A DNA stretch of 64,000 nt. It comes from Ruditapes philippinarum. Its lineage: Eukaryota. How positions within the stretch are numbered: the stretch's first letter is position 1; every line of letters begins with the position of its first letter. The DNA lies in NCBI RefSeq assembly GCF_026571515.1, contig NW_026852366.1:124001-188000 (forward strand), read 5' to 3'. Shown one piece after another: positions 15,001-18,000 of the stretch. Position numbers: made by a program.

Positions 15001-18000
15001 TGAAAGTATGACCGAATCTAACGTAAATAAACCCAAATAGAACTAACTAAAATAAAAAATGACGCTTAAAATTATTTTGTGGATTTATATTTTACCAATA
15101 TGCCGAGGTAATTTTAAAGGATCTATATTAATATGTTTATTATTTTCTGCACTTCATTTTATCCTAGCATTACTCAAATATTTTTTTTTATTTACAAGTT
15201 GTAAGCCACATAAAACCAAAGTACGTCAAATTATGCCTAATGGTTTTTTCCTTTGATAAAATATAATTCATGCAGATTCGACCAGTTTCATATCTTTTAA
15301 TAGATAGATAACAAAAAATAAAAAAGAACAAATTTATACTTGATACTACATAATATTCTTGAAAGTTATATTCAAAGTGCATGTAACTGAATTGAAAATT
15401 GAACATGCATGAACTTAAAAATGATTGAATTACGGAGGCGTCCTGGGTGACCTAACGTTTTCGCTATAAGATATATTACCATCCTCCAGTAAACTAGATC
15501 CAAATAAGATAAATTTCGATAAAGATATTTTTCTTTGTCAAGAGTTGGATAAGACTGAATTTATTTGATATGGGCACTATGTTATAGACTATGAAATGGG
15601 CAATTCAACTAGCCCTGGTAGACATTTATTTTTGTTGTTGTTGTATTTTTTTGTTGTATTTTCCTGAGATGCTCCACTTTTTCATGCCTCATGAATATTC
15701 TCTACTTGCTCTTTTAATCAAAGCCGTTTGATATGATTTTAATTTACCGATTAACAGAAAGAAATGTCATTTGTTTATTAAAATGTGTGTTGTCGCATAC
15801 TGTCTGATATAGTCAGTTACTTTTGTATTATATATAATCTTGTTTATCCCGATCTCAAATTTATTAGACAGGATCTAAAACAAAAATGCATTCCATTCCA
15901 TGGATCCACACAAGATATTGAAATATTCATTGAATTACATAAGAACCTTTACAAAGTAATTATGATTAATGCAATGAGATAATTTACACGTATTTTCCTT
16001 TTGCTTTTTGTATTAATTTATCAATATATACATTGGTATATAATTTGCTGAAAGATTGCTATATGATTTATATTTTAGTGCAGTCTGCAAACGGTTATGA
16101 TGTGACGTCACCAGGAGCTATAATAGGAATCGTTCTAGTAGCTATTGTTATAATCACGGCAATCGTCATCATAGTTGTCATCTGCTTGAAAAAGACATGG
16201 CATAAACAACGAAGACAAAATACAATATCAAACAAGACAAAGAAAGTTCCAAAAAAGCCAACAACGATTTCAGGTGAATACAGTCATAACATAGAACTTT
16301 ATTAAAAGTTAAATATTCAATATATTCCCTTCTGTTAATCTTTATTGTAAACGGTATGCGGGTGCATAATAAAATGGTTTTCTCATTCATCTTATGTAAT
16401 ATGGTGTATCGTCTTTTTAAATAATTAGTTACAATTGTTGTAGAACTGTTATAATGTTATAATTTATGGTGCCATTTAAGTTGCAATCCATATTTTTATC
16501 TTAAATTAAAATGTAGATTGTGTTTGTTTAGAATTTCTTTTCACAATACATAGAAGCAATATGTAAACCTGAATTTATGTACATATATTTTAGAAACGCT
16601 TATCGAAAAATTGCCTGACATCCCAGAAGTAGACGAAAATATAAGTGCGTCTGGTGTAAGCGTAAGAGATGAATCTAAACTAACGTTTTATCAAATTGAC
16701 AATGAGGCAAGCACTACTGAAGCGGGTGACATTGATAAAGAAAATGAAAAAGTGGAACAATATGAAGCTAACAAAATAAGTGAGGATATGACTGTCTCAG
16801 TGAAAACCGATAAGATACAAACACAAACTGAAGAATCAGAAACATTTGAGAGCAAACCAGATGAACCAAAGTCATCTGGTGAGGATTTGGTAAAGACAAT
16901 CAACTGTGAAAGTGAAACAACACAGGATATAAAAAGTGAAGTATCCATCACACGTGTAATTGAAAATGAAAATATTTTGAGGAAAGATTTACCTTATTTA
17001 AACTCTACAGAACACATTTTCTCAGAATATGATCCAGCTATGACATACAAATCGGAGAGTGAATGGAAATCAAAGAGTGACGAAGGCTTACATCTACAAT
17101 CGATCAGATTTGAGAGAAAAAATATCGCTCCAAGAGCTTTTGAAATAACTCGCGATGACAGTGATTTGAATCTCAAATCTCAAAGTACGATAGAGGTTGA
17201 AATGCACGAAGCAACAAAGGTATCCAGTCGATCCGAAGGAACATTAACTGATGATATGAAAATAAAATCATTGAAAAGAAGATCATCTTTAATATCTAAA
17301 GTAACGAGCAAATCATTCCAATGGAATTTCGATTATATATCTCCATATGCAATGACAGATAAACAAAAGCGTGAGCGTTATGAGTTAAAGCTTAAAATTC
17401 GTAAGCGAAGAATGCTAGCATTGAAACAAAAGTTAGCTGATAAGGAAAGACAACAGTATGAAAATAAACTAGCATTTGAGAAATGGAAACTACGAAAACA
17501 GGGCGAGAAACATTACGAAGGAGACATTGGGTCTTTTAACAAAAGAAAATTTAATAAATATAATTACTGGTATCCGTAATCAATGACTTATTATCATTTA
17601 TCCTCTCTAGAATATATTCATTTACTTCAGTGTGGAAGAATAAATACATTTCCACAACGTTGAAAAGTCATAATCATGCAAGTATATAATACTTTATGAT
17701 AAAAGTAAACAAAAAGTACTAGTATCATCTTATTTATTTGAAATCCACAAAGCCAGCAAGTACGTTCGAACACACAAAAAATATGCAAAATAGCATGAAA
17801 TAATGACAAATATTGTAATCTCTAAAACAGTATCAAACGTGCGAAATAAAATGCTGATTTACACAAACGTAGTACATTGAAATACTCGTCTGATAGCATA
17901 CATATAATTAAAGAACATAATCTCACAGGACAACTAAAATTTCAGAAACACATATCGTTTATCAAAAATGTCTGATTTCTTCACTAAGGACAAACATAAT

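What the first reader, a model, noticed from the sequence alone, without database searches (positions are those of the whole stretch)
15059..17579. Gene C: intact ectodomain-less paralogue, explicable by clean loss of a phase-1 exon cassette
In D/E, exons 2-8 lie between two phase-1 introns. In C the signal exon joins the TM exon directly across a 971-bp intron in which I see no ectodomain remnant, and the 409-aa frame is intact despite deep divergence from D. Inference: it is a maintained adaptor, decoy or constitutive signalling unit rather than debris. The same phase symmetry would allow D or E to skip exons 2-8.
Basis: partly seen in the sequence, partly recalled or inferred. Interest (0 to 1): 0.7.

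Follow-up and report, generated by a model that had tools for sequence, protein, structure and literature searches.

The report
Clam receptor-like gene lacking its ectodomain
Gene C is an intact Manila clam gene for a membrane protein with almost no outer part, an old and conserved short relative of neighbouring receptor-like genes, of modest interest.

Summary
The window is Ruditapes philippinarum DNA. Exons 15059-15107, 16079-16273 and 16594-17579 (GT-AG introns, phase 1) give exactly NCBI's 409-aa protein LOC132758182.

Neighbours D (minus strand) and E (plus strand) share C's 49-nt first exon and its phase-1 membrane-span (TM) exon. Between these they carry six DUF7042 ectodomain exons. 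I count exons 2-7, not 2-8.

Intron 1 of C holds no ectodomain trace above background.

C is maintained:
- dN/dS against copy B is 0.36.
- C changes half as fast as B.
- Mercenaria has a 421-aa short counterpart that groups with C in a tail tree. Its long form groups with D.

So the short form predates the species split, dated about 179 Mya in one paper, and missing remnants are expected. Tandem copies A and B have the same short build but carry stops and frameshifts.

The tail is mostly disordered. It has conserved motifs and one confident helix homologous to a module of CCDC181, a cilium and sperm-tail protein.

Loss of the cassette rather than gain is favoured, not proven. The roles of adaptor, decoy or signalling unit are untested, and expression could not be checked.

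The parts
15059..15107 (+). Gene C exon 1: 49 nt, MTLKIILWIYILPICR plus 1 nt, hydrophobic N-terminus (putative signal peptide), ends in phase 1
   Evidence: offset 0 in P0001; same length as exon 1 of D and E; identical at 28 of 49 positions with D and 24 of 49 with E, ungapped
15108..16078 (+). Gene C intron 1: 971 bp, GT..AG, no ectodomain remnant and no domain-bearing open frame
16079..16273 (+). Gene C exon 2: 195 nt, phase 1 at both ends. Encodes a short stub (VQSANGYDVTSPG), the membrane span (AIIGIVLVAIVIITAIVIIVVICL) and a basic juxtamembrane stretch
16594..17579 (+). Gene C exon 3: cytoplasmic tail (328 codons) and TAA
17211..17516 (+). Module inside exon 3 (residues 206-307 of the exon-3 translation) homologous to CCDC181: 'WNFDYISPYAM..KQK', a long basic helix and 'AFEKWK'
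   Evidence: (helix 255-307, pLDDT 87-96)
8325..8373 (+). Copy of C's exon 1 downstream of A, the putative exon 1 of copy B: 43 of 49 nt identical to C, with CGA changed to TGA (MTHRIILWIYILLIC*)
12205..12433 (+). Copy B TM exon: 229 nt, with a 10-nt tandem insertion relative to A that shifts the frame into a stop
12706..13703 (+). Copy B tail exon: open, 54% identical to C's tail at protein level
3361..3579 (+). Copy A TM exon: 219 nt, open
3737..4712 (+). Copy A tail exon: an in-frame stop and a 7-nt deletion near 4112 relative to B
24745..24793 (-). Gene D exon 1: 49 nt, MLFFLYMWILIIHLFR plus 1 nt, phase 1
20619..24143 (-). Gene D ectodomain cassette: six exon blocks (2-7). The first starts in phase 1 and the last ends in phase 1 at 20619. 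Exon 5 gives a sub-threshold DUF7042 match
19630..19824 (-). Gene D TM exon: 195 nt, phase 1 at both ends
18379..19415 (-). Gene D tail exon: 344 codons plus stop, same tail family, 29-32% identical to C's tail
   Evidence: a database model P0008 reads the same TM-to-tail splice
25367..25415 (+). Gene E exon 1: 49 nt, phase 1
25825..31226 (+). Gene E ectodomain cassette: exons 2-7. NCBI's E protein P0034 scores 43.8 bits for DUF7042. A conserved phase-1 donor lies at 31226
32670..32861 (+). Gene E TM exon: phase-1 acceptor; the donor is my choice among three candidates

Best explanation
Shown:
- Gene C is an intact, already annotated Manila clam gene.
- It encodes an N-terminal hydrophobic segment, one membrane span and a 328-residue tail. 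About 10-13 residues lie between the first segment and the span.
- The tail is mostly disordered, with conserved short motifs and one long basic helix.
- C's first exon, TM exon and tail exon are homologous to those of neighbour D.
- C is evolving under constraint.
- Mercenaria has a short form that groups with C.

Inferred:
- C descends from a DUF7042 receptor-like gene of the D type. The six-exon ectodomain cassette, flanked by phase-1 introns, was removed in one in-frame step. This happened before Ruditapes and Mercenaria split.
- After the loss, the first residues of the TM exon (VQS|A) took over as the end of the signal peptide.
- The protein then sits in the membrane with a tiny outer stub and its tail in the cytoplasm.

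Proposed mechanism (inferred, untested): C is a ligand-independent membrane anchor. It brings the family's tail, including a module shared with the microtubule- and cilium-associated protein CCDC181, to the membrane. D couples the same tail to an extracellular DUF7042 domain. A and B are younger tandem copies of the short form that are decaying.
For: Model and annotation. The exon-by-exon match to P0001 (409 aa) is exact.

Homology of the flanking exons.
- Exon 1 is 49 nt in C, D and E. The TM exon is 195 nt in C and D. Phases are identical, and the C and D TM exons end in the same 'ATTTCAG|GT' donor.
- The TM exons align without gaps in the span.
- The Mercenaria short form's N-terminus hits the E and D TM exons at E 5.5e-6 and 4.7e-4.

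Constraint.
- NG86 dN/dS for C against B tails is 0.355, bootstrap 0.26-0.48, dS 0.80, 324 codons.
- Relative-rate test: 26 changes unique to C against 53 unique to B (outgroup P0003, p 0.0024), and 19 against 43 (outgroup P0004, p 0.0023).

Age.
- P0004 of Mercenaria (421 aa) has a signal, a 9-residue stub, a span and the tail. P0007 (603 aa) links DUF7042, the span and the tail. Both lie on contigs of identical length, 97,832,188.
- Tail tree of 15 rows and 308 columns: P0004 joins C/B/A/P0003 with support 93/91, and P0007 joins D/P0010 with 88/91.
- The AU test rejects the two Mercenaria forms as one clade (p 0.013) and C/B/A plus D as one clade (p 2e-39).
- The two species split about 178.9 Mya according to PMC7831173 (passage).

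Topology. One 19-residue hydrophobic peak at residues 22-41 onward. There are 5 K/R and 0 D/E in the 15 residues after the span, and 0 K/R before it.

Tail.
- 15 invariant columns in 13 sequences.
- AlphaFold2: mean pLDDT 55, 176 of 327 residues below 50, one helix at 255-307 with pLDDT 87-96.
- Profile-profile match to 16 CCDC181-like proteins: 99.3%, E 1.2e-20, 101 columns. Reversed-profile controls gave 4-12% and E 0.0025-0.01.
- P0017 is named CCDC181 by the Atlas, score 0.96.
- CCDC181 localises to sperm flagella and motile cilia, interacts with HOOK1, and its knockout gives malformed flagella (PMC11491787, passages).
Against: - I saw no expression data. NCBI's model may be purely computational.
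- dN/dS is a pairwise value over both lineages, not C alone. C against D is saturated (dS 3.0).
- The two key tree branches are not at the tool's star level. The groups for the AU tests were named after I had seen the tree.
- Within Mercenaria the short and long tails are 53% identical, more than C to P0004 (46%). I read this as slow evolution in Mercenaria, but gene conversion there is not excluded.
- Direction: similarity of the TM exon to unionid DUF7042 proteins is the same for short and long forms (12-17 identical of 57-69 aligned), so it does not tell loss from gain.
- No signal-peptide predictor was available, so cleavage is unproven.
- The 16 CCDC181-like sequences were picked by a search seeded with the clam tails. 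Only one of them was named by a tool.
- Pfam finds nothing in C's tail.
- Which part of CCDC181 binds microtubules could not be read, because the paper is not held.
Confidence: 0.6

Rival explanations
1. The short form is the older one. A six-exon DUF7042 cassette was inserted into the phase-1 intron of a signal-span-tail gene by exon shuffling. This gave rise to D and E, and nothing was lost in C.
For: Cassettes flanked by phase-1 introns are the classical currency of exon shuffling (recalled, Patthy's rule), so the symmetry fits insertion as well as loss. The tail tree cannot be rooted on rows of known build. TM-exon similarity to unionid proteins does not separate short from long forms.
Against: Unionid DUF7042 proteins (P0035, P0036, about 900 aa) already have signal, ectodomain and a span of the same type, with a different tail. 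The signal-ectodomain-span unit is therefore the widespread state. The tail family is small: 13 hits at E 1e-10 or better in 1.84 billion representatives. A short gene would still have had to get its signal and TM exons from such a receptor gene.
Confidence: 0.2
2. C works mainly through its membrane span. It pairs with long forms such as D through the conserved small-xxx-small face (GAIIG) and acts as a decoy or dominant-negative partner, not as an autonomous anchor.
For: A G/A-x-x-x-G pattern at the start of the span is kept in C, A, B, D, E, both Mercenaria forms and the unionid proteins. C and D are neighbours, and both kinds are kept in two genera.
Against: Nothing tested here speaks for or against pairing. 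The tail of C is as conserved as that of the long forms, which a pure span-only decoy would not need.
Confidence: 0.2
3. The N-terminal hydrophobic stretch is not cleaved. C is then a hairpin with two membrane segments, or a signal-anchored protein, and the topology differs from that of a type I protein.
For: The h-region is short, holds a proline, and is followed by Arg. No predictor was run. Only about 13 residues separate it from the span.
Against: The homologous exon 1 of E and D precedes a cysteine-rich glycosylated-type ectodomain, so it must act as a signal there. V-Q-S|A in C and A-S-A|G in Mercenaria P0004 fit the small -3/-1 rule (the rule is recalled). Charges follow positive-inside.
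Confidence: 0.15
4. C is unexpressed debris whose open frame survives by chance or recency.
For: No expression data were seen. Its two nearest copies, A and B, are broken.
Against: The frame is open over 409 codons in DNA where intron frames carry 19-27 stops per 323 codons. dN/dS is 0.36, C is slower than B, and there is a 421-aa short counterpart in Mercenaria.
Confidence: 0.05

Closest known systems
DUF7042 (PF23069) single-pass proteins of bivalves: neighbours D and E, Mercenaria LOC123559173, unionid P0035/P0036
   Same: Homologous first exon (49 nt, phase 1) and TM exon. The tail is shared with D and with the Mercenaria long form.
   Different: C has no DUF7042 domain or any other ectodomain. 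The unionid proteins and E carry other tails or none. No paper mentions this domain.
[quoted passage not shown]
   Same: A module of about 100 residues, 'F.Y.SPYAM..K', a basic helix and 'AF..W..K'.
   Different: CCDC181 is soluble and has conserved N-terminal regions and further 'AF..WL' repeats that C lacks. Only 101 of 307 profile columns align. C has a signal and a membrane span.
Adaptors and pseudo-receptors with minimal or truncated domains, such as DAP12/FcR-gamma type adaptors and the BAMBI pseudoreceptor (recalled, not tested)
   Same: Single-pass proteins that keep one half of a receptor and act without binding a ligand themselves.
   Different: No sequence relation. C has no ITAM or kinase-related part. 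Its partner, if it has one, is unknown.
Domain loss after duplication by deletion of symmetric-phase exons, or exon shuffling in reverse (recalled)
   Same: The cassette is bounded by introns of the same phase, so removing it keeps the frame.
   Different: This is a general process, not a family. Here the direction is not proven.

Membership tests
DUF7042 (PF23069) proteins | DUF7042 domain at or above Pfam's gathering score | tested here: not met
   P0001 (= C) has no DUF7042 match at E up to 0.05. E's P0034 scores 43.8 bits and P0007 scores 39.3 bits against a cut-off of 27.
DUF7042 (PF23069) proteins | Descent from the same gene scaffold: homologous signal exon and TM exon with the same phases | tested here: met
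   Exon 1 is 49 nt in C, D and E. The TM exon is 195 nt in C and D. Phase 1 throughout. The TM exons align without gaps in the span.
Venerid span-plus-tail family (unnamed; profiles A3/A4) | Conserved tail motifs (ITR..EN..LRKD.P.LNSTE, RDDS, SEG, WNF.Y.SPYA, AF.KWK, terminal WYP) | tested here: met
   15 invariant and 17 nearly invariant columns in 13 sequences with C as first row. The profile search returns 13 proteins at E 1e-10 or better.
CCDC181 | Shared module 'F.Y.SPYAM..K', basic helix, 'AF..W..K' | tested here: met
   hhalign 99.3%, E 1.2e-20, 101 columns. Reversed controls gave 4-12%.
CCDC181 | Full-length likeness: N-terminal conserved regions, repeated AF..WL motifs, soluble protein | tested here: not met
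   Only columns 183-283 of 307 align. C has a signal and a span. Pfam CCDC34 (PF13904), which two of six CCDC181-like proteins reach at about 35 bits, is not matched by P0001.
Type I membrane protein with cleaved signal peptide | Single span with positive-inside charge distribution | tested here: met
   One hydrophobic 19-mer peak. 5 K/R and 0 D/E in the 15 residues after the span, and 0 K/R in the 12 before it.
Type I membrane protein with cleaved signal peptide | Cleavable N-terminal signal peptide | tested here: inconclusive
   A hydrophobic N-terminus and a V-Q-S|A site were read by eye. No signal-peptide predictor is among the tools.
Pseudogene (debris) | Stops, frameshifts or lost splice sites | tested here: not met
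   C has none, and both introns are GT-AG. A and B do have such lesions.
Pseudogene (debris) | Neutral evolution (dN/dS near 1) | tested here: not met
   C against B is 0.355 (0.26-0.48). A against B is 0.595 (0.32-1.56), which includes 1.

The most novel reading that the evidence does not exclude
The D/C family may be an undescribed kind of bivalve surface receptor. It would wire an extracellular DUF7042 domain directly to a CCDC181-type cilium or microtubule module. C would be its ligand-independent form, kept for well over 100 million years. It would set or compete for the cytoskeletal attachment of the long forms, for instance in ciliated gill or mantle cells. NCBI's ectodomain-only model of E would be the complementary soluble half.
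Probability: 0.15. Interest if true: 0.55.

Novelty: new member of a known kind. Interest (0 to 1): 0.3.

Why it matters
The finding gives a clean, datable example of a receptor-like gene that lost its whole ectodomain in frame and was then kept for a very long time. Younger copies of the same short form are decaying beside it, so maintained and unmaintained outcomes can be compared in one locus.

It also attaches a first functional lead to two families without any literature. These are the DUF7042 membrane proteins and their venerid tail. The lead is a module shared with CCDC181.

The practical value is limited. The gene is already annotated, the process is a known one, and the function remains a guess.

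Tried and rejected
- Complex prediction of the D TM-exon peptide with the C TM-exon peptide (met a full queue; job, result). No verdict: score 0.04 against a mark of 0.34. This is no evidence either way.
- Fold search of the tail model. Not run, because the model is one helix in disorder and matches would be meaningless.
- Pfam on all tail exons and on the ectodomain exons singly. Nothing for the tails. Only sub-threshold DUF7042 for exon 5 of D and E (E 0.0056 and 0.0002).
- PDB sequence search with E's protein: 0 matches at E up to 1.
- Search for an 'exon 8' between exon 7 and the TM exon of D/E, by tblastx of D against E and by tblastn of the Mercenaria and unionid stalks. Nothing better than E 0.014, and that hit is the end of exon 7 itself.
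- Search for the family tail or unionid-type tails downstream of E and in the long A/B introns. The best E values were 0.29-0.80.
- ORF 9212-9742: Pfam gave nothing. The Atlas gave its best score of 0.77 with low recognition.
- Rfam and tRNA scans of the window: 0 and 0.
- Names and species of the unnamed relatives. The listing of cluster members answered that the shared database is switched off, so I did not pursue this.
- The CCDC181 microtubule-binding paper (PMC5496667) is not held. The Saxidomus genome paper had no divergence date.
- C against D dN/dS: rejected as uninformative because dS is 3.0.
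Full report
Source. The window is eukaryotic, AT-rich DNA (GC 27-38% per 2 kb) with one run of 184 N at 8785-8968. I left that run untouched. A search with the translation of the last exon of gene C returned a 409-aa NCBI protein at 100% identity, 'uncharacterized protein LOC132758182 [Ruditapes philippinarum]' (P0001). The window is therefore Manila clam, not human.

How I searched. I made no search with a spliced (joined) translation of my own. Every exon was translated and searched separately. Whole-protein comparisons used the database's own records.

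The gene model.
- Exon 1 is 15059-15107 (49 nt). Intron 1 is 971 bp. Exon 2 is 16079-16273 (195 nt). Intron 2 is 320 bp. Exon 3 is 16594-17579. Both introns are GT-AG.
- The three exon translations sit at offsets 0, 17 and 82 of P0001. The two split codons read V and E, as in P0001.
- So the model is already annotated by NCBI. I could not see on what evidence.
- The protein has a hydrophobic N-terminus (MTLKIILWIYILPICR). A stub of about 10-13 residues follows. Next come one span (residues 30-53) with five K/R just after it, and a 328-residue acidic/basic tail.

Neighbours D and E.
- D lies on the minus strand and E on the plus strand, head to head. Their start codons are 573 bp apart (24793 and 25367).
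- Both start with a 49-nt exon ending in phase 1. Six paralogous ectodomain blocks follow. A TM exon then opens in phase 1.
- The last ectodomain exon ends in phase 1 at a donor conserved in both genes, caagaa|GTAAG, at D 20619 and E 31226.
- NCBI's protein for E (P0034, 334 aa) has the same six ectodomain exons and scores 43.8 bits for DUF7042.
- I found no seventh ectodomain exon, so the cassette is exons 2-7 by my count.
- Joining exon 1 to the TM exon would read GCC (D) or GCT (E), in frame. No isoform evidence was available.
- C's exon 1 is identical to D's at 28 of 49 positions and to E's at 24 of 49, without gaps.
- C's and D's TM exons are both 195 nt, and both end with ATTTCAG|GT.

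No remnant in intron 1.
- tblastn with the ectodomain pieces found nothing above background. The best E was 0.071, against 0.055 in an unrelated control stretch and 3.65e-74 on D itself.
- A first, wider run over the whole window also gave only E of 0.2 or worse outside D/E, in the part of the output that I could see. That output was cut.
- The open frames in the intron carry no Pfam domain.

A and B, two more short copies.
- Self-comparison shows a tandem unit: 131-4747 matches 9229-13738 at 82-94% identity, and 7013-8403 matches 13779-15137 at 83%.
- Each unit holds a TM exon and a tail exon like C's. There is no ectodomain-like sequence.
- The second unit ends 30 bp past C's exon 1. A copy of that exon therefore sits at 8325-8373, in the place expected for B's first exon. 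It reads MTHRIILWIYILLIC*, with CGA changed to TGA.
- B's TM exon has a 10-nt tandem insertion and runs into a stop.
- A's tail exon has an in-frame stop and a 7-nt deletion. A's first exon would lie outside the window.
- So C is one of three short genes here, and the only intact one. B's putative intron 1 contains the N run, and its content there stays unknown.

Selection.
- For the tails, C against B gives dN/dS 0.355 (bootstrap 0.26-0.48; dS 0.80).
- C against the in-frame part of A gives 0.258.
- A against B gives 0.595 (0.32-1.56), which is compatible with neutrality.
- C against D is saturated.
- C has half as many lineage-specific replacements as B (26 against 53, and 19 against 43; p about 0.002).

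Relatives and age.
- Word-based searches found six near-length relatives and one longer relative of C's tail.
- An exhaustive profile search found 30 proteins at E 0.001 or better and 13 at 1e-10 or better. Many look like last-exon calls from unnamed contigs.
- Two are named Mercenaria mercenaria proteins. P0004 (421 aa) has a signal, a 9-residue stub, a span and the tail. P0007 (603 aa) is a 5'-incomplete model that links DUF7042, the span and the tail.
- In a tail tree, P0004 groups with C, B, A and P0003 (support 93/91). P0007 groups with D and P0010 (88/91).
- Species-wise groupings are rejected: p 0.013 for the Mercenaria pair and p 2e-39 for C/B/A with D. I named these groups after seeing the tree.
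- One genome paper dates the Mercenaria-Ruditapes split at about 178.9 Mya (PMC7831173, passage).
- The short build is thus old. That explains why the intron holds no trace of the cassette.
- Against this reading, the two Mercenaria tails are 53% identical, more than C to P0004 at 46%. Both Ruditapes genes evolve about three times faster than their Mercenaria counterparts.

Loss or gain.
- Phase 1-1 symmetry fits both.
- Unionid DUF7042 proteins already have signal, ectodomain and a similar span, with another tail. The tail family is small.
- I therefore take signal-ectodomain-span as the older unit and the short form as derived. I put this at about 0.7.
- TM-exon similarity to the unionid proteins does not discriminate.

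The tail.
- Pfam finds nothing.
- Thirteen tails share 15 invariant columns in several short motifs.
- AlphaFold2 gives disorder (176 of 327 residues below pLDDT 50) and one confident helix at residues 255-307.
- The weaker hits of the profile search match only this C-terminal part. One of them, P0017, is named CCDC181 by the Atlas (score 0.96). Two of the six that I scanned reach Pfam CCDC34 at about 35 bits.
- The profile-profile comparison gives 99.3% and E 1.2e-20 over 101 columns. Reversed profiles give 4-12%.
- CCDC181 localises to sperm flagella and motile cilia and interacts with HOOK1. Its loss gives malformed flagella (PMC11491787, passages). Its microtubule binding is known to me only from the title of a paper cited there, which is not held.
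- No paper mentions DUF7042, DUF7043, DUF7044, PF23069 or the three LOC identifiers.

Verdict. The direction is likely but unproven, and the function is open. My best guess is a ligand-independent membrane anchor for a cytoskeleton-linked tail.

What stayed unchecked:
- expression
- names of the unnamed relatives
- paper supplements

Noticed in passing
25367-31276 (+), gene E: NCBI's protein for E (P0034, 334 aa) ends by reading through the conserved phase-1 donor at 31226 into the intron. It is therefore an ectodomain-only, span-less model. A TM exon lies at 32670, but no family tail follows within 4 kb. E may make a secreted form, a membrane form, or both.
   Followed up: partly
18379-24793 (-), gene D: The only database protein I found for D (P0008, 378 aa) starts at a Met inside the span and holds only the end of the TM exon plus the tail. 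No full-length D model turned up, although all six ectodomain exons look open.
   Followed up: partly
9212-9742 (+) and 9412-9897 (-): A 176-aa Ser/Thr-rich open frame overlaps a 161-aa antisense one inside B's putative intron 1. The copy in unit A is broken. Pfam gave nothing and the Atlas gave 0.77 with low recognition. Unexplained.
   Followed up: partly
1-15137: The tandem duplication unit runs from inside intron 1 of one short gene to 30 bp past exon 1 of the next. Copy B therefore pairs a duplicate of C's promoter and first exon with the body of the older copy.
   Followed up: yes
5118-6936; 45372-46644; 56750-57401; 62915-63713: Four satellite-like tandem arrays with units of 145, 166, 163 and 161 bp (85-92% matches). 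The first is inserted between A's tail exon and the downstream region that is contiguous in unit B.
   Followed up: no
8969-9237 and 51040-51308: A 270-bp repeat at 93% identity directly abuts the N run.
   Followed up: no
50584-50949 and 53019-53345 (+): Two exons of a superfamily-1 helicase gene (Pfam AAA_11, E 4.5e-13 and 2.9e-32).
   Followed up: no
24794-25366: D and E are divergently oriented, with only 573 bp between their start codons. This is a likely shared bidirectional promoter region.
   Followed up: no
tails of C (16594-17579) and D (18379-19415): Both Ruditapes tails carry about three times more lineage-specific replacements than their Mercenaria counterparts: 60 against 19 and 71 against 19.
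   Followed up: partly
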